From Pseudoduganella sp. (lineage in GTDB: Bacteria > Pseudomonadota > Gammaproteobacteria > Burkholderiales > Burkholderiaceae_D): a DNA stretch of 64,000 bases. The notes under the pieces are model-generated. The model was not told the DNA's origin. It saw nothing but the letters and a program-made list of their open reading frames with translations, and did not search any database. The position numbers were made by a program, and so were the translations under genes. The DNA is taken from assembly GCA_021323265.1 (NCBI GenBank), contig JAJTCO010000008.1:4357-68356 (forward strand), in the 5' to 3' direction. Positions 35,438-63,673 of this stretch are shown here, piece after piece. Numbering within the stretch: the first letter of the stretch is position 1; every line of letters starts with the position of its first letter.

Positions 35438-36061
35438 ATGGACGACATCGAGCAGATCACCCGCCGCACGCTGGAGCATTACGAACGCAACGCGCAAGCC
35501 TTCCTGGAAGGCACGCGCAACCACGACGTCAGCCAGAACGTGGCGGCACTGCTCGGTGCCATCGAGGGAACGCCACCGTTCCGCATCCTCGACCTCGGTT
35601 GCGGCCCCGGCCGCGACCTGCGCACCTTCCAGGCCCTCGGCCATGAGCCGGTCGGTGTCGACGGCTCGGCCCGCTTTGCGGAGATGGCGCGGCGCTGGAG
35701 CGGCTGCACGGTGTGGCAGCAGGACTTCGTCGCGCTCGACCTGCCACGCGCCAGCTTCGACGGCGTGTTCGCCAATGCCTCCCTGTTCCATGTGCCCAGC
35801 GCCGCCTTGCCCGATGTGCTGGCGCGCCTGCACGCGGCGTTGAAGCCGCGCGGCGTGCTCTTCAGCTCCAACCCGCGCGGGCAGAACGAAGAGGGCTGGA
35901 ACGGTGCGCGCTACGGTTGCTACTACGATTTCGAAACCTGGTCCGCGGTGGTGACGGCCGCTGGCTTCGATGCCATCTCGCACTATTACCGTCCGGAAGG
36001 GTTGCCGCGCGCGCAGCAGCCATGGCTGGCTTCAGTCTGGCGTAAGAGGGAGTTGTGTTAG
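35438..36061 (+). CDS. Class I SAM-dependent methyltransferase
   Basis: 'ILDLGCGPGRD','FDGVFANASLFH','LKPRG'. Confidence 0.9.
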   Translation: MDDIEQITRRTLEHYERNAQAFLEGTRNHDVSQNVAALLGAIEGTPPFRILDLGCGPGRDLRTFQALGHEPVGVDGSARFAEMARRWSGCTVWQQDFVALDLPRASFDGVFANASLFHVPSAALPDVLARLHAALKPRGVLFSSNPRGQNEEGWNGARYGCYYDFETWSAVVTAAGFDAISHYYRPEGLPRAQQPWLASVWRKRELC

Positions 36062-36131
36062 CTTGCGTACAGTGACCGGAAATTCCTGTCCGTATGATTT
36101 GCTCGTCGCGAACTTTTTAGAGGAGCGAATC

Positions 36132-36338
36132 ATGAACAAGGACCAAGTCAAGGGTAAAGCGAAGGAAATCGGCGGCAAGATCCAGGAAGAGGCAGGGGAT
36201 CTGGTCGGCAGCTCGAAGCAGCAGGTGAAGGGCGTGGCCAAACAGGTGGAAGGCAAGCTGCAAAAGCAGCGTGGCGACCTGCGTGAAGCCGTCGACGACG
36301 CCACCGATGAACTGATCGACCGCGGTAACCGCCAGTAA
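36132..36338 (+). CDS. CsbD family stress protein
   Basis: 'MNKDQVKGKAKEIGGKIQEEAG...QVEGKLQK'; GAGGAG RBS. Confidence 0.9.
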   Translation: MNKDQVKGKAKEIGGKIQEEAGDLVGSSKQQVKGVAKQVEGKLQKQRGDLREAVDDATDELIDRGNRQ

Positions 36339-36350
36339 GCTACTGCGCAC

Positions 36351-36382
36351 AGGCCGCGGGCACGTGTTGCCCGCGGCCTTTT
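36351..36382. terminator. Terminator hairpin between the convergent csbD and GST genes
   Basis: AGGCCGCGGGCA-CGTGT-TGCCCGCGGCCT-TTT. Confidence 0.7.
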
Positions 36383-36398
36383 CCATTTCCCTCGCCGC

Positions 36399-37061
36399 TT
36401 ACGCTTCGCCCTGCGGCACGCCCAGCGGGAACATGTGGCGATAGGGCCTGGCTTCCTCCCAGCAGCGGGCAAACGATGGGCGCGCACGCAGGCGGTTCAG
36501 GTAGGCCAGCACGTGCCGGTGCCGGGCGGCGACCGGATGCGACCAGTGCGCGTACAGCAAGAACGGTGCGGCCGCGCAGTCGGCCATGCTGAATTCCTCT
36601 CCGGCAGCCCAGGTGCGGCTTGCCATCACCCCGTCCAGCCACGCATACGCGGTGTCCAGTTTTTGCCGTGCTTCGGCCACGCCATGCGGGTCGCGCCGGT
36701 CTTCCGGGCGCAGCACGTCGGCCACCAGCTTTTGCTGCGGCGTGGCGACGTGGTTGTCGAAGAAGCGGTCCATCATGCGCACTTCCAGCGCGGCCTTGGG
36801 ATCGGCCGGCAGCAGCCGCACGGGCCCCGGATGGTGCAGCGCCAGGTACTCGATGACGATGCTGGCCTCGGCCACCATGCGCTCGCCGTCCAGCAGGATG
36901 GGGAATTTCTGGATCGGCCACAATTCCGCAAACTGCCTGCAATTCTCGGCATGGTCCGGCGACAGTATGCGGTACTCGAATGGTGTCCCGTTCTCGTACA
37001 GCGCGACCAGTGCTTTCATGGAGTAGGAGGACAGCGGGTGGTAGAACAATTGCAGGGACAT
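36399..37061 (-). CDS. Glutathione S-transferase family protein
   Basis: 'LFYHPLSSYSMKALVALYE','KFPIL','EASIVIEYL','FSMADCAAAP','RLRARPSF'. Confidence 0.9.
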   Translation of the reverse strand: MSLQLFYHPLSSYSMKALVALYENGTPFEYRILSPDHAENCRQFAELWPIQKFPILLDGERMVAEASIVIEYLALHHPGPVRLLPADPKAALEVRMMDRFFDNHVATPQQKLVADVLRPEDRRDPHGVAEARQKLDTAYAWLDGVMASRTWAAGEEFSMADCAAAPFLLYAHWSHPVAARHRHVLAYLNRLRARPSFARCWEEARPYRHMFPLGVPQGEA

Positions 37062-37218
37062 GGTGGCTCCTTGGGTTGAACGTGAATGGTATCAGGACGA
37101 CGTTTAACGCCACGCCGGATCGACATGACCACCGGATTTTTTGCGGTATATCAACACCGCGCGCCGCATCTTCGCGGACTATCTGTCTCTCGTCGTGCAG
37201 TGAATCGAGTCCCAGGCA

Positions 37219-37644
37219 ATGGTGACAATTCGGGAACTGGAGCAGCAGGAACTCGTTGCGGCTTACGCGGTGATGCGGGAGCTGCGGCAGCATCTCGGCC
37301 TGCAGCAGTTCCAGGATTGCGTCGCAAGGCAACGGCGCAGCGGCTACCGGCTGCTGGGCGGGTTCGATGCCAAGGGCAAGTTGCTGGCCGTGCTGGGCAT
37401 GCGGCCGGTCTCCACCCTGGCCAGGGGCGACCACCTGCACATCGACGATCTTGTCGTCACCGAACGCAAACGTTGCAAAGGTATCGGCAAGGCCATGCTG
37501 CGGCATGCGGAATGCTGGGCGCAGGAACAGGGACTCGTTGCGGTCTTTCTCGATAGCCGCCAAGACGCTGTGCGCTTCTATTCCGCGCTGGGCTACCAGC
37601 CGCATGCCGCAGTGCTGATGCGAAAGCGAATCGACGTTAGTTAA
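37219..37644 (+). CDS. GNAT family N-acetyltransferase
   Basis: 'LHIDDLVV', acetyl-CoA motif 'RCKGIGKAML', 'AVRFYSALGY'. Confidence 0.85.
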   Translation: MVTIRELEQQELVAAYAVMRELRQHLGLQQFQDCVARQRRSGYRLLGGFDAKGKLLAVLGMRPVSTLARGDHLHIDDLVVTERKRCKGIGKAMLRHAECWAQEQGLVAVFLDSRQDAVRFYSALGYQPHAAVLMRKRIDVS

Positions 37645-37666
37645 ACCCACCACAAGGAGCGTTAAC

Positions 37667-37897
37667 ATGAGCGATACCAAAAGCAAGCAGCCTATCCAGT
37701 TCGACCTGTCGCCGGAGCATGCCGAGGCGCTGAGCAAGCTGGCGGGCGACCGCCAGGTCCGTCTGAGCGGCAGCGTAAAGAATGGGAAAATGCTGGTGAA
37801 CTTCATCGCCTGCAATGCGCCTTTCGTGGCTTGCAATGCCCCGTTCACCGCCTGCAACGCCGCCTTCACCGCTTGCAACGCACCGTTCCGCAAGTGA
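37667..37897 (+). CDS. Putative RiPP precursor peptide: 45-aa leader plus four heptapeptide FxACNA(P/A) cores
   Basis: Strong AAGGAG RBS. C-terminus FIACNAP-FVACNAP-FTACNAA-FTACNAP-FRK. Sits among modifying-enzyme genes. Confidence 0.8.
   Translation: MSDTKSKQPIQFDLSPEHAEALSKLAGDRQVRLSGSVKNGKMLVNFIACNAPFVACNAPFTACNAAFTACNAPFRK
37802..37885 (+). repeat. 4 x 21-bp coding tandem repeat (FxACNAP/A)
   Basis: ttc atc gcc tgc aat gcg cct / ttc gtg gct tgc aat gcc ccg / ttc acc gcc tgc aac gcc gcc / ttc acc gct tgc aac gca ccg. Differences are mostly synonymous. Confidence 0.9.
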
Positions 37898-37904
37898 GCG
37901 ACGC

Positions 37905-38648
37905 ATGACTTTCATCGCTACCGACACGATGAATGCGCTTCGCCAGCGCGGCGAAGCGCAGCTACCTTGTTACGAGCAGGCCTTGCGCAGCGCATGCGAA
38001 GCGAGTCCGCCCCCCTTTGGCGAAGCCTGGTACGGAGAAAAGTACCGTGAGCTGTCCAGCGATCCAGGCTGGCTTGCCACGTCGCTGATCGCCAACGCGG
38101 AAAAGGAAGGGGAGGGTTCGCGCAAGCTGTGGGAGCTGGTGGCGCGCTGCCCCGATCCCGAGATCGCGGAAGCGATCAGGCAGCATGCCATCGACGAATC
38201 GCGCCACGCCATGCAGTACGTGGCCATGTGCGAGCTGGTCTTTCCGGGCGCGCTGGAGGGCGACATGAAGGACTATGCCGATGGCCTGTCGCCGCGCTAC
38301 TCCGCGCGCGACTTCCCCGCGCCTGCGCCGCACGCGTCGGCGCAGGCCGTGCTCGATGAACTGGTGCAGATGAACATCGGAGAGATACGCACACGCATCC
38401 ACCAGCTCCTGATGAGCCCCGTGATCACGGCCTATTGTCCGCCGGAGCGCAGGGAGCGGCTGCACAAGCTGCTTGCTTCGCTGATGGAGGACGAGACCCG
38501 GCATATCCAGTACACGGCCCGTCTGATCAACGCGGCCGGGGAACAGGGCAGTGCCGACTTCGTGTTGCACACGACACGCCGGCGGGTGCGCGAGTTCAAC
38601 GAACTGACATTGGCCGAAGTGGGCGAATCGATGTTCACGGGCGAATAG
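37905..38648 (+). CDS. Ferritin-like diiron-carboxylate protein (putative oxidative tailoring enzyme)
   Basis: Four-helix ligand pattern: 'EKEGEG' ... 'IDESRH' ... 'IGEIRT' ... 'EDETRH'. ATG is 7 bp after the precursor stop (alternative ATG 37929). Confidence 0.75.
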   Translation: MTFIATDTMNALRQRGEAQLPCYEQALRSACEASPPPFGEAWYGEKYRELSSDPGWLATSLIANAEKEGEGSRKLWELVARCPDPEIAEAIRQHAIDESRHAMQYVAMCELVFPGALEGDMKDYADGLSPRYSARDFPAPAPHASAQAVLDELVQMNIGEIRTRIHQLLMSPVITAYCPPERRERLHKLLASLMEDETRHIQYTARLINAAGEQGSADFVLHTTRRRVREFNELTLAEVGESMFTGE

Positions 38649-38658
38649 GGCAAGCACG

Positions 38659-39459
38659 ATGCTGGCGGCAATAAGGCGGCATTTCGATGCGCACTACGCC
38701 GCCGGCGAATCACCGCTCGACCTCTCCCTGCAGGCGCTGCTGCCTCCGGCCCTGGCGGCGCCGGAAACGGCGGCCCTGCGCAGTTCCGCATTCCTGACCC
38801 CGGCCGGCTGGCGCCGCCTGTGCGGCATGGCCGCGCAGGCCAGCGTCATGCAGGGTTGCGTTTCGCCGGTGCGCTTGCTCGACGCCGGCTGCGGCCGGGG
38901 TGGCGTGGGCGCGGCGCTGGCCTCCTCGATCGGCGCCAGCCTGGTCGGGGTCGACTTTTCCGAAGCGGCGATTGCGGCCGCGCGCGCCGACCACCATCAA
39001 CCGGGCGCCGCCTTCATGGTGGCCGATATCGCCAGCCTGCCGTTCGAGGATGGCGCGTTCGCCATTGCCTGCACCATCGATGCGCTGCACCTGGTGCCCG
39101 ATCCCCAGCTGGCGCTGCGCGAACTGCGGCGTGTCCTGCGGCGCGGCGGCGTGATGTTCGGCGGCGTGCACCGGATCGGCACCAGCGGCGCCGAAGCGCG
39201 CCACATGGCCCACTGGCAGGCCTTCTTCGCCGACGCCGGCTTTGGCAATCAGTGCTGGCAGGATGTGTCGCAGGAGTGGCGCTCGGTCATGCACGAGAAG
39301 CATGCACGCCGGCTGGCGCAGCGCGGCGTCCTGGTGGCCAGGCATGGCGGCGCCGCCGCGCTGGAATGCGACGTCTCGCGCCAGATGGTGGGGTCGCTGG
39401 ACGAACCTGGATTCATCAGCCGCAACGCCAGGTTCGAGTTCCTCGTCACCGCTACTTGA
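38659..39459 (+). CDS. Class I SAM-dependent methyltransferase (Methyltransf_11-like)
   Basis: 'LLDAGCGRGG','GVDFS','ADIASLPFEDGAF','LRELRRVLRRGG'. Confidence 0.85.
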   Translation: MLAAIRRHFDAHYAAGESPLDLSLQALLPPALAAPETAALRSSAFLTPAGWRRLCGMAAQASVMQGCVSPVRLLDAGCGRGGVGAALASSIGASLVGVDFSEAAIAAARADHHQPGAAFMVADIASLPFEDGAFAIACTIDALHLVPDPQLALRELRRVLRRGGVMFGGVHRIGTSGAEARHMAHWQAFFADAGFGNQCWQDVSQEWRSVMHEKHARRLAQRGVLVARHGGAAALECDVSRQMVGSLDEPGFISRNARFEFLVTAT

Positions 39460-40552
39460 GCGCCTGCAGCTGCCTGCCCTGGCGCGCGCCGCAGATCACG
39501 GGAGCCTTGTCCGGCAGCTTCAGCATGTCGAAGTAGTTCTGGCCAAGCGCGATGTTGCGGAAGGCGTCGTCGTCGACGAACTGGTAGATGAAGCTGGTCG
39601 CCTTCAGCTCTTCCAGGTAGGAGTCGAAGGTCTTGTCGTCGGAGGCGACGAAATCGGTGCCGGGCAGGATGCGCCTGGAATACTGGTTGATGAAGGGGAC
39701 GTACTTGGCCCGTACCGCAGGCTTCAGGAAGTAGTTGTCGTAGATGACGCGCCAGGACAGGTCGATCATCATGTTCGGATGCTTGTCCAGCAGGTTCCTG
39801 AGGATCTTGATGTGCTGGTCCGGGTCGATCGCGGTGAGCTCCTTGGACAGGCCCATGTGCAGCCACACCACCTTGTTGTCCGGATAGCGCTGCATCACCT
39901 CGGTGATCAGGTCCAGGTATTTGGTGGGCGCGCCGTCTTCCCCCAAGTCGCCGTGCAGGCCGATCGGCATGTTGCGCTCGCGCAGCGCCGCCATGAAAGG
40001 CCCCCAGCCGCGGATCTCCTCGATGGTGACGGGGCGATGGCCGTTGTTGAACAGGGCTTGCTTGACCAGGTTCAGTTCACCCATCCACTTGAACAGGCCC
40101 GGAAACTCCTCGTCCAGCACCGCCATGCCGCGCTTGACCGTGTGCGGCTTGGCCAGGTCGGCGAAGGACATCGACATCGTCAGGCGCGGCACCTGGACCG
40201 GAAACTCGGACACGTTTTCCGCATTGATGATGTCGTTCTTCAGGTTCGGGATCACCGGCGTGCCGGGGCAGTTCAGGTAGTAGGTGCAGCTCGAATCATA
40301 GGGTAGCGTCTGGCCGATGCCGAACACGTTGGCGTAGCGGATGCCCGCATTCTTCAGCATGCGCGTCAGGTCCTGGTGCGGGATCGGGCTGCCGCCGAAA
40401 GGGCGGAAGTGCAAATGGCTGTCGACGATGGCCAGGTTGGGCTGGGTGCTGCGGTCGTAGCATGCAGGACCGGAATCGGCAGCGGCGGGAACGGCCGCAC
40501 CGGCGGCCAGGGCCGCCCACATGGCGGCACGGGTCAAGGCAAACGCTTTCAT
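39452..40552 (-). CDS. Exported amidohydrolase-superfamily protein (Amidohydro_2-like)
   Basis: Signal peptide; 'IVDSHLH', 'WMGELN', 'IGLHGD', 'WLHMG', 'IDLSW', 'PGTDF'. Confidence 0.8.
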   Translation of the reverse strand: MKAFALTRAAMWAALAAGAAVPAAADSGPACYDRSTQPNLAIVDSHLHFRPFGGSPIPHQDLTRMLKNAGIRYANVFGIGQTLPYDSSCTYYLNCPGTPVIPNLKNDIINAENVSEFPVQVPRLTMSMSFADLAKPHTVKRGMAVLDEEFPGLFKWMGELNLVKQALFNNGHRPVTIEEIRGWGPFMAALRERNMPIGLHGDLGEDGAPTKYLDLITEVMQRYPDNKVVWLHMGLSKELTAIDPDQHIKILRNLLDKHPNMMIDLSWRVIYDNYFLKPAVRAKYVPFINQYSRRILPGTDFVASDDKTFDSYLEELKATSFIYQFVDDDAFRNIALGQNYFDMLKLPDKAPVICGARQGRQLQALK

Positions 40553-41793
40553 GCTTCCTCCTCAAGGTCAGGGTTGGCCGGACAGGGCCGGCCGCTTTGG
40601 TGGGTGACGGTCTCCGCCAGGGCGGCGGATTCGGCCGGCGCGTCGAGCGCCGCGTACAGGGCGGCAGCGCGGCAGTAGGGCGCGCGGGCGAACTGCCCGC
40701 TGGCGCGCGCGGCGCGCAGGGCGTCGAGCGCCTGCTGCCGCCTGCCGCCAGCCGCCTCCACGGCGGCGGCCAGCACCCAGTCGTGCAGGCCGCGCGCCGC
40801 CGGCGGCAGCAGCGAGAGCGCCTGTGCCGCCTGCGCATGGCGCGCCTGCTCCAGGTAGTAGGCTGCCGCTTCGGCGGCATACACCGGGGCGTAGTCGCGC
40901 GCCATCTGCGCAAAGCGCCGCTCGGCTTCGGCCAGCCAGGGCGCCCGCTGCGCGGGCGGGAGCAGACGCGCCAGCTGCATGGGCAGGTGGGGATCGGGCG
41001 ACAGCGCGATGGCCAGGCGCAGGCGTTCGATGGCCTGCTGTTGCAGCCCGTTGCGCCGCTCCGCCGCCGCCAGCGCTTCGAGCAAGGGCACATGACGGGG
41101 CAGGCGCCGCTGCGCGGACAACAGCACGGCGTAGGCTTCGTCATGCCGGCCCTGCGCCGACAGCAGGCGCGCCTGTCCCAGGTACAGCCAGACGGCCGGC
41201 ACGGGATGGGGATCTGTCAGGTGGCTGCGCGCCAGGTCGAGCTGTTGCTGTGCCGCCGCCAGCCGGCCCTGCGCGATCAGCCAGCCAGCTTTGCGCGCGT
41301 ACAACAACGGGTTGCGGCTGTCCGCCAGCACTTGCTCCAGCAGCTGCCATGCCTCGCGCGTGCGGCCCCGGTTCCACCACAGTTCCGCCTGCAGGACGGC
41401 CGCTTCCCGGCCGGCATCGCGCGCGCCATGCTGCGCCAGCTCCGCTGCCGCGTCGTCGAAACGGTGCAGGCTCAGTTGGATGCTGGCGCGCTGCGTCGAC
41501 ACGGCGGCACTGGCGGGCAGGGGGCGCAGCACGGCCAGCGCCTGCTCCATGGCACCCACGTCGTTGAGCAGCTGGCCGCGCAGGTAGAGCAGGCGCGCCA
41601 GTTCGCGTGCCTCCGCTTCGGGCAAGGCGCCGGCCCCGGCCCGCTGCTGCAGGCTGGCCAGGCGATCATCCAGGTTGTGCTGGAAGATGGCGCTGTCGGT
41701 GCTGCGCACGTGCGCCAGCCAGTCCGCCGCTGCTGCCGGCGCGCCGCCCAGGGCCGCGAGCGGCAGCACGGCGGCCGCGGCCAGCCGGCGCAC
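40549..41793 (-). CDS. Exported tetratricopeptide-repeat protein
   Basis: Signal-like 'RRLAAAAVLPLAALGGAPAAA'; TPR-like helices 'SLHRFDDAAAEL','RGRTREAWQLLEQ','QGRHDEAY'. Start uncertain (GTG 41793 or ATG 41835). Confidence 0.7.
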   Translation of the reverse strand: MRRLAAAAVLPLAALGGAPAAAADWLAHVRSTDSAIFQHNLDDRLASLQQRAGAGALPEAEARELARLLYLRGQLLNDVGAMEQALAVLRPLPASAAVSTQRASIQLSLHRFDDAAAELAQHGARDAGREAAVLQAELWWNRGRTREAWQLLEQVLADSRNPLLYARKAGWLIAQGRLAAAQQQLDLARSHLTDPHPVPAVWLYLGQARLLSAQGRHDEAYAVLLSAQRRLPRHVPLLEALAAAERRNGLQQQAIERLRLAIALSPDPHLPMQLARLLPPAQRAPWLAEAERRFAQMARDYAPVYAAEAAAYYLEQARHAQAAQALSLLPPAARGLHDWVLAAAVEAAGGRRQQALDALRAARASGQFARAPYCRAAALYAALDAPAESAALAETVTHQSGRPCPANPDLEEEA

Positions 41794-41812
41794 GGCGTCG
41801 CCGCACCGCGCC

Positions 41813-42961
41813 TTACTGGCTGGGCGGCTGCACATAGGGGAACTCCGTCTGCGCCGGCTTGGCGGGCGCGTGCACGCCGACCCCGCGGTTGGGTTCATCG
41901 CGCCGCGGGCCGTTGATCAGCAAGGTGAGCATCGACTTGATCACATCCTCGTTCGGCAGGCGGCCCCCCATGGTCTGCACCGGCTTGCCCAGCACCAGGG
42001 CCTTTTCGATGCCCAGGTAGCCCGCCTGCTGGCTGTCCATGCTGGCCGTCTGCGCCGTGTTGAGGATCAGGAAGTCATCGAGCAACAGGTCGAGCAGCGG
42101 ATGGGGCGTCGGCCAGTCAAGGACGTTGCTGGCGTCGAGCGCCTTCTCGAAGTTGTCCATCCTGGCCAGGCCGTTCTGCAACGCCTGCCGATACAGCTTG
42201 GCGTGGGCCGGATCGACATTGAAGCTGTCTTCCGCATTCCACCAGTCCTTCAGCTTGTCGTCGCGGATCAGGAAGACCGTCATTTCCAGGCGCCCCATGC
42301 GGTCGATCCGGGCCGGCTTGCTGCCGCTGCCGTGGGTTTCCGATACCACCGCCCACAGCTGGCTTTCCAGCTGCGAGGCGTCGAGCAGGAACACCATGCT
42401 CAGCACGTTCTTGCCGGCCAGGGAATTGAGGCCGGGGCGGTTGTCCATGCCTTCGTCGCGCCACACCGGCAGGCGCACGCGCGCCAGGTCGGTGAACGAC
42501 TGGTCGGCACGGTTGCCGGCAAACACGCGCAGGCGCTGGTCGCCGCCACCCTGGGGCAGGTTGACCGGGGCCGTGACGTCGGCCAACTGGCTGCCATTGC
42601 GCAGCAGGCGGCAGCGCATGGCCTGGTTGGCCGCCGCATCGGCGCGGCAGCGCAACTGGTACTCCAGCGCGGCGTCGACCTGGGCGCGCAAGGGCTTGCT
42701 GGAAAAGCCGCGTATCGGCCGCCAGCGGATGCGGTACTCGACGGCATCGCTGAAGCGCGTGTTGGCGGTGGCCCCCGGGTAGACGTTCAGGATGAAGGCC
42801 AACTGGCGCCCCGGCAGCGCCACGGCGAAGAAGTCGGTGATGTCCGCCGCCGGTTCCGCCGTCACGGCCGGGCCATCCCAGTGATCGGTGGCCGTGGCCG
42901 GCCCTGCCAGGCAAAGCAGCAGGGCCAGCCCCAGCGTACGCCAGGCGCGCGCCGCGGCCAT
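41813..42961 (-). CDS. DUF4331-like exported protein
   Basis: Signal peptide, then 'DHWDGP...ADITDFFA', 'VFAGNRAD', 'GKNVLS', 'IDRMGR', 'GGRLPNEDV', 'FPYVQPP'. Confidence 0.75.
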   Translation of the reverse strand: MAAARAWRTLGLALLLCLAGPATATDHWDGPAVTAEPAADITDFFAVALPGRQLAFILNVYPGATANTRFSDAVEYRIRWRPIRGFSSKPLRAQVDAALEYQLRCRADAAANQAMRCRLLRNGSQLADVTAPVNLPQGGGDQRLRVFAGNRADQSFTDLARVRLPVWRDEGMDNRPGLNSLAGKNVLSMVFLLDASQLESQLWAVVSETHGSGSKPARIDRMGRLEMTVFLIRDDKLKDWWNAEDSFNVDPAHAKLYRQALQNGLARMDNFEKALDASNVLDWPTPHPLLDLLLDDFLILNTAQTASMDSQQAGYLGIEKALVLGKPVQTMGGRLPNEDVIKSMLTLLINGPRRDEPNRGVGVHAPAKPAQTEFPYVQPPSQ

Positions 42962-42962
42962 G

Positions 42963-43697
42963 TCAGTACGCAGCCAGCAGCTGTCCCCAGCCGTTGATCC
43001 GGGTACGGATGTCGTTGCTGCGCAGGCAGTGCCACCAGGTCGTGGCATTGACCGACAGCGTGGGCTTGCCCAGCCAGCCTTCGGCCTGGGCCGCCACGCG
43101 CGCCATGCGCAAGTCCGTCCCCAGTTGCACCAGCGCCTGCGCCTGCGGCACGTTCACTTCGCGCAGGCTTTCGCGCAGCACTTCCTCCGACACTTCGCCG
43201 ATCTCGATGGCGTTCGTGCAGTGCAGGCTTTTCTGCGCCACCACTTCGACGCCGAACTCCTTGAAGAAGGAGACGATCTTCTCGTCCGCCACCGCAGGGT
43301 AGGGCGTGACGACGCCAATGCGGGTGAATTGCAGCGCGCGCTGGGCCGCCAGCATGGCGTCGACCGGCGTGATCATCTCCAGGCCGGTATCGTGCCCGAT
43401 GGTGGCCTTGATCTGGCGGTTGCCTTCCAGCCCGCCCCACAGGTTGCTGCTGGAAATGCCCAGCAGCAGGCTGTCCGGCTTGCATTGCAGGCGCGCCGCG
43501 GTCTCCGGCAGGCGCGCGTTGACGCCTTCCACGAAGCGCTGCAGGCCGTCCGGCGCGCTCCAGTCGACGGCATCGATGATGATGCGCGCGGTGGCGATGG
43601 TCGCGCCCTCCACCCGCATGCTCCACAACTCGTTCTCCACCGTGACATTGGTGGCCGGCGTCAGCACGCCGATTTTCCTGCCCCATTGCGATTGCAT
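42963..43697 (-). CDS. Asp/Glu/hydantoin racemase superfamily protein (maleate isomerase/arylmalonate decarboxylase-like)
   Basis: 'KIGVLTPATNVTVENE','RIGVVTPY','LGKPTLSVN..TWWHCLR','GWGQLL'. Confidence 0.8.
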   Translation of the reverse strand: MQSQWGRKIGVLTPATNVTVENELWSMRVEGATIATARIIIDAVDWSAPDGLQRFVEGVNARLPETAARLQCKPDSLLLGISSSNLWGGLEGNRQIKATIGHDTGLEMITPVDAMLAAQRALQFTRIGVVTPYPAVADEKIVSFFKEFGVEVVAQKSLHCTNAIEIGEVSEEVLRESLREVNVPQAQALVQLGTDLRMARVAAQAEGWLGKPTLSVNATTWWHCLRSNDIRTRINGWGQLLAAY

Positions 43698-60922: not shown

Positions 60923-61636
60923 TTACAGGCGGGCGATCTGGCGGTCGATGGCTTTGATGGCCCGCTCGCTGCGCTCGCTATAGCGGTCGGTCAGGTACTC
61001 CGTGCGGCCACGCATCAACAGGGTCATCTTGAACAATTCTTCCATCACATCGACCACGCGGTCGTAGTAGGCGGAAGGACGCATTCTACCCGCGTCGTCG
61101 AACTCCTTGTAGGCCATCGGCACCGACGACTGGTTGGGAATGGTGAACATGCGCATCCAGCGCCCCAGCAAGCGCAGCGTGTTTACCACGTTGAAGGACT
61201 GCGAGCCGCCGCAGACCTGCATCACGGCCAGGGTGCGGCCCTGGCTCGGACGCACGGCGCCTTGCTCCAGCGGGATCCAGTCGATCTGGTTCTTCATGAC
61301 GGCGGTGATGGCGCCATGCCGCTCAGGGCTGCACCACACCTGGCCTTCCGACCACAGGCAAAGCTCGCGCAGTTCCTGCACCTTTGGATGGGATTCGGGA
61401 ACGCTGCCCACCATGGGCAGCTCCATCGGATCGAAGATCCTGACCTCGGCGCCGAAGTGCTGCAGGATGCGCGCCGCTTCGAACGTCAGGAAGCGGCTGA
61501 AGGAGCGCTCGCGCAGGGAGCCATACAGCATCAGGATGCGCGGCGGATGGTGCATGTCGCCCTGCGGCGCCAGCTTGTCCAGGTTGGGAACGTCAACGAG
61601 TTCGGGCTTGAGGTTCGGAAGGTCGGGGATGCTCAT
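60923..61636 (-). CDS. arsH: Arsenical resistance protein ArsH (NADPH-FMN oxidoreductase)
   Basis: '[12 protein letters not shown]','WCSPERHG','[10 protein letters not shown]','TIPNQSSV','DRYSER'. Confidence 0.95.
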
Positions 61637-61639
61637 GTT

Positions 61640-62362
61640 TCAGTGCTTTTCGAGGGAGTCTGCAAAATCGCCTGGCGCCACGGTGCCGCCGACGGTGGCG
61701 TCGGCTGGTGGCGCGGGGTAGAGCCAGCAGAACAGAGCCGTTGCCGCCATCATCCCCGCCAGCTGGGCCAGGATGAAGCCGGGCGCGTCGGCCGGGCGGA
61801 TGCCCGCAAAGGTATTGCTGGCGGCGCGCGCCAGCGTCACCGCAGGGTTGGCGAAGGAGGTCGAGGACGTGAACCAGTAGGCTGCCGTGATGTAGGCCGC
61901 TACCGCAAACGGGGTGATCGCCGGGCGGCTGCGCGAACAGCCGATGATCACGCCGATCAGGCCGAAGGTGGCAATGAATTCGCTCCACCACTGTGAAGGA
62001 CCGGTGCGGGCGTGTTCGGAAGCGAAGAACAGCGCCTCGCCGAACATGCCGTGCGCCGCGGCCACGCCGGCGAAGGCGCCGGCAACCTGCACCGCGATGT
62101 AAGGCAGGACTTCGGCCAGGGGCACGTTGCGCTGCCAGGCTTCCGACAGGGTCACGGCGGGATTGAAGTGCGCCCCGGAGATGGTGCCGAACATGAGGAT
62201 CAGGGCCACCAGCCCGGCGCCGGTGGCGATGGTGTTGGCCAGCAGGGCGATGGCCACATTGCCGCCGGCAAGGCGTTCGGCCATGATGCCCGAACCGACT
62301 ACTACTGCCAGCAGCAGCGCGGTGCCGAGCCCCTCGGCCACCAGGCGTCGCGACAGCGTCAT
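61640..62362 (-). CDS. MIP/aquaporin family channel (AqpS-like arsenite conduit)
   Basis: 'SGAHFNPAVT' and 'SFANPAVTLAR' NPA motifs; within the ars operon. Confidence 0.9.
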   Translation of the reverse strand: MTLSRRLVAEGLGTALLLAVVVGSGIMAERLAGGNVAIALLANTIATGAGLVALILMFGTISGAHFNPAVTLSEAWQRNVPLAEVLPYIAVQVAGAFAGVAAAHGMFGEALFFASEHARTGPSQWWSEFIATFGLIGVIIGCSRSRPAITPFAVAAYITAAYWFTSSTSFANPAVTLARAASNTFAGIRPADAPGFILAQLAGMMAATALFCWLYPAPPADATVGGTVAPGDFADSLEKH

Positions 62363-62859
62363 GGCTGCACCTCGCCGATACGGGCCAGCTCACGCTTCAG
62401 CGCCAGTTTGTCCAGCTTGTCCACCGGCAGGCTGCAGAAGATGTCCAGGCGGGTCTTGATTTCACGGCAGACCTTCGCGAATTCGTGGCGCACTTGGTCA
62501 TCCGTGCCCGAGGCTGCGGCAGGATCGCGGAAACCCCAGTGCGCCGTTACCGGCTGGCCGGGCCAGACAGGGCACACTTCGCCGGCCGCGCGGTCGCAGA
62601 CGGTGATCACGAAGTCCATGGCTGGCGCATCCGGTTGCGCAAACTCGTCCCACGATTTGCTGCGCAGGTCGGATGTGCTGTAGCCGAAAGCCGTGGCCTG
62701 TTCGATGGCGAACGGGTTGACGGTGCCGGTCGGGTGGCTGCCTGCGCTAAAGGCGCGGAAGCGGCCGGCGCCGCAAGTGTTCAGCATGGCCTCTGCCATG
62801 ATGCTGCGCGCCGAATTGCCCGTGCAAAGAAACAGGACGTTGTAAGTCTTCTGGTTCAT
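62359..62859 (-). CDS. arsC: Arsenate reductase (LMW-PTP fold)
   Basis: 'LFLCTGNSARS','ITVCD','EVCP','HWGFRDP'. Confidence 0.9.
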   Translation of the reverse strand: MNQKTYNVLFLCTGNSARSIMAEAMLNTCGAGRFRAFSAGSHPTGTVNPFAIEQATAFGYSTSDLRSKSWDEFAQPDAPAMDFVITVCDRAAGEVCPVWPGQPVTAHWGFRDPAAASGTDDQVRHEFAKVCREIKTRLDIFCSLPVDKLDKLALKRELARIGEVQP

Positions 62860-62870
62860 CTCGGCCTCGC

Positions 62871-63350
62871 TCAAGGTTGCAGGGTGCCGATGCGCTCCAG
62901 CTCCGCCTTCATGCGTGCCGGGTCTTTCTTCAGTTCTTCCAGCGGCAGCGCGAAGAAGGTTTCGATCCGGTGGCGCAGGATGCGGTAGGCCTTCATGAAT
63001 GCCGCGTCGATCTCATCATCGGTGCCGGTCGCATGTGCCGGATCTTCCACGCCCCAATGCGCGCGCATGACCGGGCCGAGATAGGCCGGGCAGGTTTCGC
63101 CGGCGGCGCTGCCGCACACCGTGATCACGATGTCCGGCGTGACGGGCAGGTTGTCCCAGGATTTGCTGTGATAGCCCTCGGTGGAAATGCCTTCGCGTTC
63201 CAGCAAAGCCAGCGAGCGTGGGTGGACGTAGCCAGCGGGCTTGCTGCCGGCGCTGATGGCATGCCAGCCGGCCGGCGCCAGGTGGTTGAAGGTGGCTTCG
63301 CCAAGGATGGAGCGGCAGGAATTGCCGGTGCATAGGATCAGGACGTTCAT
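62871..63350 (-). CDS. arsC: Arsenate reductase (LMW-PTP fold), second copy
   Basis: 'LILCTGNSCRS','ITVCG','ETCP','HWGVEDP'. Confidence 0.9.
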   Translation of the reverse strand: MNVLILCTGNSCRSILGEATFNHLAPAGWHAISAGSKPAGYVHPRSLALLEREGISTEGYHSKSWDNLPVTPDIVITVCGSAAGETCPAYLGPVMRAHWGVEDPAHATGTDDEIDAAFMKAYRILRHRIETFFALPLEELKKDPARMKAELERIGTLQP

Positions 63351-63673
63351 GATTTGCAGGAATTGACGTTGGTTGTAGGAGCGCAGCTTTGGCCGCTGCA
63401 GCAGTTGTCGGTCAAATAGGAAAGCACGCCGTTCATGGTGTCGAAATTGGCGCTGTAGATGATGAAGCGGCCTTCCTGGCGGGGTTCGATCAAGCCCGCA
63501 TTGGTCAGCTCTTTCAGGTGGAACGAGAGCGAGGAGGGCGCAATATCGAGCTGCTCGGCGATCTTGCTGGCGGCAAGGCCTTGCGGGCCGGCCTGGACCA
63601 GCAGGCGGAACGTGTTGAGCCGCGACTCCTGGGCCAGCGCAGCCAGTGATGCCAGTACCGCTTTCGTTTCCAT
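63347..63673 (-). CDS. arsR: ArsR/SmtB repressor with C-terminal CC..C site
   Basis: 'ALAQESRL','SSLSFHLKEL','EGRFIIY','NCCSGQSC'. Confidence 0.92.
   Translation of the reverse strand: METKAVLASLAALAQESRLNTFRLLVQAGPQGLAASKIAEQLDIAPSSLSFHLKELTNAGLIEPRQEGRFIIYSANFDTMNGVLSYLTDNCCSGQSCAPTTNVNSCKS

What the first reader, a model, noticed from the sequence alone, without database searches (positions are those of the whole stretch)
37219..39459. Candidate undescribed RiPP system: GNAT + multi-core FxACNAP peptide + ferritin-like diiron enzyme + SAM methyltransferase
Seen in sequence: four tightly packed co-directional genes (gaps of 22, 7 and 10 bp). They encode a GNAT acetyltransferase, a 76-aa peptide ending in four near-identical Cys/Asn heptapeptides, a protein with two DExRH diiron motifs, and a class I methyltransferase. 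Established knowledge: a leader plus repeated cores next to tailoring enzymes is the hallmark RiPP architecture (e.g. cyanobactins, microviridins/graspetides). This operon has none of the usual class-defining enzymes (no radical SAM, YcaO, LanM/LanBC, ATP-grasp, P450 or MNIO). Inference: the ferritin-like diiron protein is the primary maturase, oxidising or cross-linking Cys/Asn/Phe in each core. The methyltransferase and GNAT would add further modifications or self-protection. I know of no described RiPP class with this combination.
Basis: partly seen in the sequence, partly recalled or inferred. Interest (0 to 1): 0.92.

Follow-up and report, generated by a model that had tools for sequence, protein, structure and literature searches.

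The report
New diiron-enzyme peptide-modification family
A four-gene bacterial operon encodes a short repeat peptide beside a predicted two-iron enzyme, a pairing found in about a hundred related loci from many phyla, and it likely makes a chemically modified peptide of a class not found in the papers searched.

Summary
The 247-aa ferritin-like enzyme has 331 homologues. An upstream small ORF carrying aromatic-x3-Asn-x2-aromatic is present in 102 of 106 informative loci, against 63 of 3000 random windows. Two of three later-fetched plasmid loci match the motif exactly. The constant residues are Asn and the aromatics, not Cys, which sits at -1 in only 40 of 78 clusters.

Core type tracks the partner enzymes: Cys with this methyltransferase (28 of 31), Leu/Val with an IucA/IucC-like ligase (19 of 19), Ser/Thr with an S8 protease (4 of 4), Trp/Tyr with AsnB, HTTM-like and PhyH genes. 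The methyltransferase occurs in 30 of 36 Cys-core clusters and 0 of 28 others.

A co-fold threads one core through the predicted diiron site: score 0.61, best control 0.01, runs inconsistent. Most likely the enzyme oxidises each core at or beside Asn and the methyltransferase acts on Cys. No chemistry is shown. Ten paper searches found no description. The scan noted other ferritin-plus-peptide systems elsewhere, but not this family.

The parts
37219..37644 (+). GNAT acetyltransferase; accessory gene of the Cys-core subtype
   Evidence: PF00583 E 8.5e-14; orthologues next to the enzyme, upstream or downstream, 32-67% identity; 8 of 21 Cys(-1) clusters vs 0 of 25 others, after excluding GNAT hits in IucA/C-type loci; no paralogue in the genome at E<=1e-5
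37654..37659 (+). Shine-Dalgarno-like AAGGAG, 7 nt before the precursor ATG
   Evidence: sequence
37667..37801 (+). Precursor leader, residues 1-45; I-x-F-D-L motif, predicted helix 16-26 and beta-hairpin 31-49
   Evidence: alignment A2 of 49 sequences; leader motif in 52 of 78 clusters; AF2 model pLDDT 76, pTM 0.43
37802..37888 (+). Four tandem cores F-x-A-C-N-A-[P/A]-F, residues 46-74; each aromatic is shared by neighbouring cores; family motif aromatic-x3-Asn-x2-aromatic
   Evidence: residues 64-75 form the confident interface in the co-fold
37905..38648 (+). Ferritin-like dimetal-carboxylate enzyme, 247 aa; predicted ligands E68, E98, H101, E160, E197, H200, plus invariant H94; inferred class-defining maturase
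   Evidence: invariant columns in 63 homologues and 110 loci; AF2 pLDDT 93.7; best VIA match 8fhc, Z 14.4, rmsd 3.4, 186 aligned
38659..39459 (+). Class I SAM methyltransferase of a dedicated family (C-terminal W-R-x-x-M-R-x-K-H motif); co-occurs only with Cys-containing cores
   Evidence: PF08241; alignment A4 of 27 sequences; 30 of 36 Cys-core clusters vs 0 of 28 without Cys

Best explanation
This operon is likely a RiPP cluster in which the predicted ferritin-like diiron enzyme would oxidise each aromatic-x3-Asn-x2-aromatic core of the 76-residue peptide at or beside the Asn, and the methyltransferase would likely methylate the neighbouring Cys sulfur. Shown: the gene arrangement, the conserved ligand set, the near-universal enzyme-peptide pairing, the motif, and the co-variation of core and partner enzymes. 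Predicted by a model: the core lies in a groove through the metal site, with the -4 aromatic in a pocket. Inferred: an O2- and reductant-dependent reaction at Asn or at the backbone of positions -2 to 0, most simply a hydroxylation or desaturation, that gives a handle for subtype-specific group-transfer enzymes (methylation and optional acetylation here; ATP-dependent acylation, amidation or phosphonate transfer in other subtypes). Release of the cores would need a host protease, because none is encoded in these four genes.
For: Pairing: 102 of 106 loci, 78 of 82 clusters at 90% identity and 43 of 47 at 70%, against 63 of 3000 background windows. Out of sample: 2 of 3 fetched plasmid loci match exactly (F-V-A-M-N-S-P-F), and the third has F(-4) and N(0) directly after a double-glycine-type leader. 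Double-Gly-type leaders (recalled motif) also precede cores in L001, L007 and L018-L020. Leaders and core copy number vary (1 to 8), while the motif does not. Position -1 holds C, L, W, S, T, R, Q, V or Y, so Asn and the aromatics are the shared determinants. All six FDO ligands are conserved (ligand set per PMC12154687). Partner enzymes track core type on the enzyme tree. The methyltransferase occurs in 30 of 36 Cys-core and 0 of 28 Cys-free clusters, and Cys-free, methyltransferase-free lineages appear at several separate places on the quick tree (L010, L083, the S8 clade, the IucA/C clade). Co-fold: score 0.61, best of 3 controls 0.01; the mark was reached by 116 of 157 solved complexes and 2 of 215 mismatched pairs; runs agree in at least 0% of contacts; partner pLDDT at least 49. 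The confident interface is peptide 64-75 against enzyme residues that include 68, 94, 98, 101, 151, 155, 160, 197 and 200. Precedents: iron enzymes act on Asn/Asp in RiPPs (MovX, ApyH, PflD; PMC13056109, PMC13174530), and a helical dimetal enzyme acts in a repeat-precursor RiPP pathway (VarO, PMC6511847).
Against: No modification, product or expression is shown. The motif was derived from the same 110 loci it was then counted on, so positions -4, 0 and +3 are fixed by the pattern; only the background rate and three plasmid loci are independent checks. Four of 106 loci miss the strict motif: L007 and L103 are variants, L025 has its peptide 3.4 kb away, and L022 has none found. In the co-fold, one of three runs scored 0.04. 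The lowest-error contacts to E68, E98 and H101 are made by Ala69 (-2) and those to G159/R162 by Cys70 (-1); Asn71 is in the interface but not among the 25 best pairs, so Asn may be a recognition residue rather than the oxidised one. Six of 36 Cys-core clusters lack the methyltransferase. Clusters are related, so the co-occurrence counts overstate independence; the tree is a quick tree with weak deep support. No protease, transporter or reductase is in the operon, and flanking genes are not conserved in related loci.
Confidence: 0.55

Rival explanations
1. It is a RiPP, but the diiron enzyme hydroxylates or cross-links the flanking aromatic residues (for example aromatic to Asn, or aromatic to aromatic), giving small macrocycles; Asn serves as partner or recognition residue.
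For: The aromatics at -4 and +3 are nearly as constant as Asn and exchange among F, Y and W. F67 makes several of the lowest-error contacts in the co-fold. Soluble diiron monooxygenases that hydroxylate arenes are in the fold list (2inn, 1t0q at Z 10.7). Aromatic hydroxylation by an iron enzyme is known in RiPPs (PbsC, PMC13056109).
Against: +3 is Leu in the Dolichospermum and L007 cores and -4 is Leu in L103, while Asn is kept. F67 contacts residues 47, 50, 60, 166, 169 and 238, a pocket away from the listed ligands. Neighbouring repeats share the aromatic.
Confidence: 0.15
2. The diiron enzyme is itself the releasing enzyme: it hydroxylates the Asn alpha-carbon and cleaves the N-Calpha bond, cutting the spacer-less repeats into C-terminally amidated heptapeptides with an N-terminal 2-oxoacyl group, which the partners then methylate or acylate.
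For: The repeats are back to back with no spacer and the operon has no protease. An MNIO cleaves the N-Calpha bond of Asn (PMC13174530, passage). The backbone of -2 to 0 lies at the predicted metal site.
Against: One subtype encodes its own S8 protease and some precursors have double-Gly-type leaders, implying ordinary proteolysis. The methyltransferase correlates with Cys, not with Asn.
Confidence: 0.12
3. It is not a RiPP. The small protein is a stable partner, regulator or metal-binding subunit of the ferritin-like protein, or a protein substrate that is modified but never released as a small molecule.
For: The N-terminal 45 residues are conserved and predicted to fold as a helix plus hairpin. 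No transporter or protease is in the operon. An adenylate cyclase-AAA signalling gene lies beside 26 of 110 loci.
Against: Leaders are replaced wholesale among clades while the core is kept; core number varies from 1 to 8; partner genes are typical natural-product tailoring enzymes and switch with the core sequence. The model docks the core, not the folded part, in the active site. Distribution is sporadic (1 of 118 other genomes of the genus).
Confidence: 0.1
4. Cys is the diiron enzyme's target, as in MbnBC or ChrH/DybH chemistry (oxazolone-thioamide, or hydantoin with S-methyl), and the product is a multi-site metal chelator.
For: All 40 Cys(-1) clusters are multi-core, against 2 of 38 others. 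Cys70 is close to the site in the model. S-methylation accompanies ChrH-type chemistry (PMC13056109).
Against: 32 of 78 clusters have no Cys in the core, yet their enzymes keep the same invariant active-site residues. Cys-free clades are nested among Cys-type enzymes.
Confidence: 0.08

Closest known systems
Thiovarsolins (VarA/VarY/VarT/VarO; PMC6511847, passages read)
   Same: Repeating multi-core precursor; a helical dimetal-type oxidase (heme oxygenase-like VarO) implicated in a side-chain oxidation; no essential dedicated protease described in the passages seen.
   Different: There YcaO/TfuA define the class and VarO is a dispensable tailoring enzyme assigned by gene deletion. Here no YcaO/TfuA is present, the oxidase has two ExxH motifs (ferritin-like), and it is the only gene shared by all loci.
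MNIO (DUF692) RiPPs: MbnBC, ChrH/DybH, MovX, ApyH, PflD/PesH (PMC13056109, PMC13174530, PMC13060819, passages read)
   Same: A non-heme multi-iron enzyme is the class-defining maturase, acts on short Cys/Asn/Asp motifs, sometimes repeated, and is combined with methyltransferases, AsnB-like enzymes or S8 peptidases.
   Different: MNIOs are TIM barrels; this enzyme is an all-helical ferritin-like bundle with no DUF692 hit and no partner or RRE gene detected among the four genes.
Ferritin-like diiron oxygenases: AurF, CmlI, Dob3, MiaE-like 8fhc, aldehyde-deformylating oxygenases (PMC11775713, PMC12154687, PMC13108848)
   Same: Six-ligand E / ExxH / E / ExxH set and helical-bundle fold.
   Different: No solved homologue by sequence (best E 0.01 with profile A1, a designed protein). 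It lacks the AurF-type seventh His before the second ExxH (Leu193) but has an invariant His94 at the equivalent place before the first. The inferred substrate is a ribosomal peptide.
Polytheonamide/proteusin tailoring (PoyE Asn N-methylation; PtyS Cys S-methylation; PMC11285071, passages read)
   Same: Iterative methylation of Asn or Cys on a precursor; beta-hydroxy-Asn occurs in the product.
   Different: No radical SAM epimerase; short repeated cores; different oxidase family.

Membership tests
RiPP gene cluster (general) | Short gene-encoded precursor with leader and distinct core | tested here: met
   double-Gly-type leaders in some relatives
RiPP gene cluster (general) | Precursor conserved next to its modifying enzyme across lineages | tested here: met
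   102 of 106 loci vs 63 of 3000 background; 2 of 3 exact matches out of sample
RiPP gene cluster (general) | Enzyme binds the precursor | tested here: inconclusive
   co-fold passes the mark (0.61 vs best control 0.01) but runs disagree and partner pLDDT is 49-56
RiPP gene cluster (general) | Post-translational modification and release of a product | not testable with these tools
   needs co-expression and MS
[quoted passage not shown] | Six ligands E, ExxH, E, ExxH on four helices | tested here: met
   E68, E98, H101, E160, E197, H200 invariant in 63 homologues and on helices of the model; ligand set per PMC12154687
[quoted passage not shown] | Ferritin-like fold | tested here: inconclusive
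   VIA best 8fhc Z 14.4 (rmsd 3.4, 186 aligned), but HO-like CADD 13.3 and UndA 12.8 are close and Z near 13 is common for helical bundles; Foldseek gave no hit at E<=0.001; Atlas relatives are named ferritin-like/rubrerythrin
[quoted passage not shown] | Binds two Fe (or Mn/Fe) and activates O2 | not testable with these tools
   needs ICP-MS, Mossbauer and assay
AurF/CmlI-type N-oxygenase | Seventh His four residues before the second ExxH | tested here: not met
   that position is Leu in 103, Ile in 6 and a gap in 1 of 110 loci; an invariant His94 precedes the first ExxH instead; PF11583 only E 0.015
Heme oxygenase-like dimetal oxidase (HDO) | 3His/3-4 carboxylate set from three core helices of the alpha-7 bundle | tested here: inconclusive
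   motif spacing fits the four-helix FDO pattern; fold scores to HDOs are within about 1-2 Z of the best hit; definition from PMC13108848 section 4
MNIO (DUF692) RiPPs | TIM-barrel DUF692 enzyme | tested here: not met
   all-helical model; no DUF692 hit in the four genes
Thiovarsolins / thioamitides | YcaO plus TfuA in the cluster | tested here: not met
   no such family among the four genes or the scanned neighbours

The most novel reading that the evidence does not exclude
This is a founding member of an undescribed, phylum-spanning RiPP superfamily whose class-defining enzyme is a ferritin-like diiron oxidase that modifies an aromatic-x3-Asn-x2-aromatic core. Its product is then diversified by interchangeable partners, among them an IucA/IucC-type siderophore ligase and a phosphonate pathway acting on a ribosomal peptide.
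Probability: 0.6. Interest if true: 0.87.

Novelty: new variant of a known kind. Interest (0 to 1): 0.78.

Why it matters
RiPP classes are defined by their primary maturase, and no ferritin-like diiron enzyme in that role turned up in ten searches of the held literature. The family is large (331 homologues; many unnamed Atlas clusters) and spans Pseudomonadota, Myxococcota, Cyanobacteriota, Acidobacteriota, Actinomycetota and Methylomirabilota-type lineages. A single-chain 247-aa enzyme with a genetically encoded 8-residue target that tolerates many residues at -1 is directly testable by two-gene co-expression and could be a useful peptide-modification tool. The strict pairing of core type and partner gives predictions for several further uncharacterised enzymes: a possible Cys S-methyltransferase (rare in RiPPs per PMC11285071) and an IucA/IucC-like ligase beside a ribosomal precursor.

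Tried and rejected
Viral contigs: 1 pattern hit, no relative. Longer or fused forms: none among 7996 candidates, which is weak evidence. Phylum sample: two 50-residue hits at E about 8e-4 among 400 other genomes, not treated as family members. Foldseek PDB: no match at E<=0.001. PDB sequence searches: only designed or distant diiron proteins. The methyltransferase's PDB hits (6uv6, LahSB 6uak) cover only the SAM domain and say nothing on specificity; GNAT hits are generic. No promoter or terminator consensus was found. No RNA holder was listed; this is no evidence on expression. The Atlas gave no usable feature hit for the peptide. The profile search of 1.84 billion representatives was queued but never finished, so the outer limit of the family is unknown. 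Flanking GST, amidohydrolase, TPR and DUF4331 genes had no match in any of 110 loci and were rejected as part of the system. A profile search of five named genomes, two of them myxobacterial, found no further full-length relatives beyond a broken second copy and one weak hit, so kinship with the scan's ANLLPP-lipopeptide ferritin-like enzymes is untested. Rows dropped before counts: 4 of 110 loci with under 200 nt upstream; clusters with under 600 nt downstream (68 kept, 64 with a detected core); 46 clusters with at least 900 nt upstream and 1200 nt downstream, where GNAT hits in IucA/C-type loci were not counted. Only 80 of 130 metagenome loci were returned, 63 sequences (the query plus 62 of the 120 listed hits) went into A1, 49 (the query plus 48 of 120) into A2, and 3 of 4 plasmid hits were fetched. 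Paper searches without a description of this family.
Full report
Observation. The four genes are present as described, with gaps of 22, 7 and 10 bp. The first is a GNAT and the last a class I methyltransferase by Pfam. The third has only sub-threshold ferritin-clan hits and no NCBIfam family, and the peptide has no family. The peptide gene behaves as coding: a ribosome-binding site 7 nt upstream, 15 synonymous against 8 non-synonymous codon differences among its four repeats, and three listed strain differences that are all synonymous. Contigs from other studies cover the operon, one of them from 36000 to 40136, so it is not an assembly artefact.

The enzyme. It has 331 homologues at E<=0.001 among 1406 candidates, nearly all unnamed and about 247 aa long. 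In an alignment of 63, E68, H94, D97, E98, H101, D151, Q155, N157, E160, D196, E197 and H200 are invariant. The same holds in 110 of 110 loci, or 109 of 110 with one gap for 196, 197 and 200; that count is partly circular because the loci were found with patterns around 155-160 and 196-200. The six-ligand arrangement matches the set described for all FDOs in PMC12154687 (passages) and for AurF in PMC11775713 (passages). The AurF-type seventh His is absent (Leu193), but His94 sits at the equivalent position before the first ExxH; whether it binds metal is unknown. The AF2 model is confident (pLDDT 93.7). Foldseek found nothing significant. VIA ranks 8fhc first (Z 14.4, rmsd 3.4, 186 aligned; named a tRNA hydroxylase), followed by CADD, HrmI and UndA at 13.3 to 12.8. 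The fold therefore supports a helical dimetal enzyme but does not single out a reaction.

The pairing. I fetched 30 genome loci and 80 of 130 metagenome loci. Reading the ORFs upstream of the enzyme showed small proteins with varied leaders and one to eight copies of a short motif. The Cys/Asn repeat is only one form; others read, for example, F-V-A-L-N-A-P-F, F-A-P-T-N-S-P-F, Y-K-A-Q-N-A-P-Y, F-I-P-W-N-C-R-F, Y-R-A-W-N-A-S-F and F-A-A-Y-N-C-A-W. The common pattern is aromatic-x3-Asn-x2-aromatic, and in seven-residue tandem repeats each aromatic serves two cores. It occurs within 620 nt upstream in 102 of the 106 loci with at least 200 nt of upstream sequence (78 of 82 clusters at 90%, 43 of 47 at 70%), against 63 of 3000 random windows of the host genome. 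The misses are L007 and L103 (one aromatic replaced), L025 (peptide 3.4 kb upstream) and L022 (none found). Because the motif was derived from these loci, I tested it on plasmid hits found afterwards (3 of 4 fetched). Both Rhizobium loci match exactly. The Dolichospermum peptide keeps F(-4) and Asn directly after a double-glycine-type leader but has Leu at +3. Cys is at -1 in 40 of 78 clusters and anywhere in the core in 46 of 78.

Modularity. Among 68 clusters with at least 600 nt downstream (families): Cys(-1) cores go with this methyltransferase in 28 of 31; Leu/Val cores with an IucA/IucC-like protein in 19 of 19; Ser/Thr cores with an S8 protease in 4 of 4; and Trp/Tyr cores with AsnB (6 of 8), an HTTM-like membrane protein (6 of 8; the label is recalled, Pfam and NCBIfam gave no family) and PhyH (5 of 8). 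Six clusters had other or undetected cores. The methyltransferase is a distinct family with its own C-terminal motif and no paralogue in the host genome. It occurs in 30 of 36 clusters whose core has Cys and in 0 of 28 without, including two Trp/Tyr cores with Cys at +1. The GNAT is optional: 8 of 21 Cys(-1) clusters and 0 of 25 others. These counts are not independent, since subtypes are largely clades; on the quick tree, Cys-free and methyltransferase-free lineages still appear at several separate places. The system is sporadic: 1 of 118 other genomes of the genus, and that one of the distant Trp type, and no full-length match in 400 sampled genomes of the phylum. The window's flanking genes are not conserved.

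Complex model. Enzyme, precursor and two Fe were co-folded with alignments. The score was 0.61 against a best control of 0.01; the mark was reached by 116 of 157 solved complexes and 2 of 215 mismatched pairs, and those counts hold only roughly here. The three runs gave 0.68, 0.04 and 0.61, agree in at least 0% of contacts, and partner pLDDT is at least 49. In the best run the confident interface is peptide 64-75, one complete core, against enzyme residues that include all six predicted ligands, His94, Asp151 and Gln155. Phe67 sits in a pocket, Ala69 touches E68, E98 and H101, and Cys70 touches G159 and R162; Asn71 is not among the 25 lowest-error pairs. This supports the core as substrate and points to the -2 to 0 segment, but does not show that Asn itself is oxidised.

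Mechanism. Shown: anatomy, conservation and co-variation. Inferred: the enzyme is the class-defining maturase because it is the only gene common to all loci. Its target is the Asn-centred segment because the -1 side chain is free to vary. The methyltransferase needs Cys and most simply S-methylates it or a thiol derived from it. Partners in other subtypes are largely group-transfer enzymes, which fits an oxidation that creates a new handle. I put a RiPP-type role at about 0.85-0.9 and the specific Asn-centred plus Cys-methylation scheme at 0.55. Aromatic oxidation or cross-linking (0.15), oxidative backbone cleavage (0.12), a non-RiPP role (0.10) and Cys as the oxidase target (0.08) are the rivals.

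Comparison and novelty. It works like MNIO-type RiPP systems (passages of PMC13056109, PMC13174530 and PMC13060819) but is not one. It resembles the thiovarsolins in pairing a repeat precursor with a helical dimetal oxidase (passages of PMC6511847), but lacks YcaO/TfuA. A 2026 HDO review cites only that work for ribosomal peptide modification in the passages and section I read (PMC13108848). PMC11285071 (passages) calls S-methyltransferases rare in RiPPs. PMC9060507 was seen only as a search listing. Ten searches found no description of this family or motif. The library lacks most subscription journals and I read no supplements, where genome-mining tables could list these clusters; I allow about a one-in-four chance of prior description. 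The scan's own notes hold no look-alike by sequence, but two notes describe other ferritin-like enzymes beside repeat lipopeptides in myxobacteria, one with an Asn motif. Those are unchecked leads, and kinship could not be established.

Verdict. A real, conserved, modular peptide-modification family; most likely an undescribed RiPP class defined by a ferritin-like diiron enzyme. Chemistry untested. Interest 0.78.

Noticed in passing
L118:1798-11755 and L117:1743-8013 (Rhizobium plasmids): The same enzyme-precursor pair sits with AsnB, an NTP transferase, TauD and a nucleotidyltransferase-like gene. In R. leguminosarum it also has PEP mutase and phosphonopyruvate decarboxylase, suggesting a phosphonate-RiPP hybrid.
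   Followed up: partly
L080:2445-4109 and 33 further loci: An IucA/IucC-like (NIS synthetase) gene lies directly downstream of the enzyme in the single-core subtype; 34 of 110 loci.
   Followed up: partly
L092:269-3631 and others: A zinc ribbon-adenylate cyclase-AAA-TPR gene lies beside 26 of 110 loci, upstream or downstream, mostly in the IucA/C and S8 subtypes. It may be regulatory or simply abundant in these hosts.
   Followed up: no
L023, L025, L028, L029, L030, L065: Distant subtype with W-N cores plus AsnB, PhyH, an unassigned 500-aa membrane protein and, in some, a GYD-domain gene, an O-methyltransferase or DCC1; includes cultured actinobacteria.
   Followed up: partly
L006:6001-6741: The Moorena bouillonii enzyme has one in-frame stop while precursor, GNAT and methyltransferase look intact; the genome holds a second broken fragment.
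   Followed up: no
L004 and L027: Sorangium cellulosum So ce26 carries two near-identical copies of the same four genes about 13 kb apart.
   Followed up: no
L116:5486-7971: A Dolichospermum plasmid copy lies between IS1634 transposases, with a JmjC oxygenase and a divergent double-glycine-type precursor.
   Followed up: partly
window 39452-43048: Convergent genes for a predicted secreted amidohydrolase, a TPR protein and a DUF4331 protein; not conserved with the operon in related loci.
   Followed up: no
window 60923-63673: A probable arsenic-resistance cluster (ArsH-like, aquaporin-like, two ArsC-like, ArsR), judged from ORF starts; labels recalled, not scanned.
   Followed up: no
P0021 / P0137: An enzyme and a precursor homologue carry a source label of Burkholderia pseudomallei, each on contigs up to 49,860 bases.
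   Followed up: no
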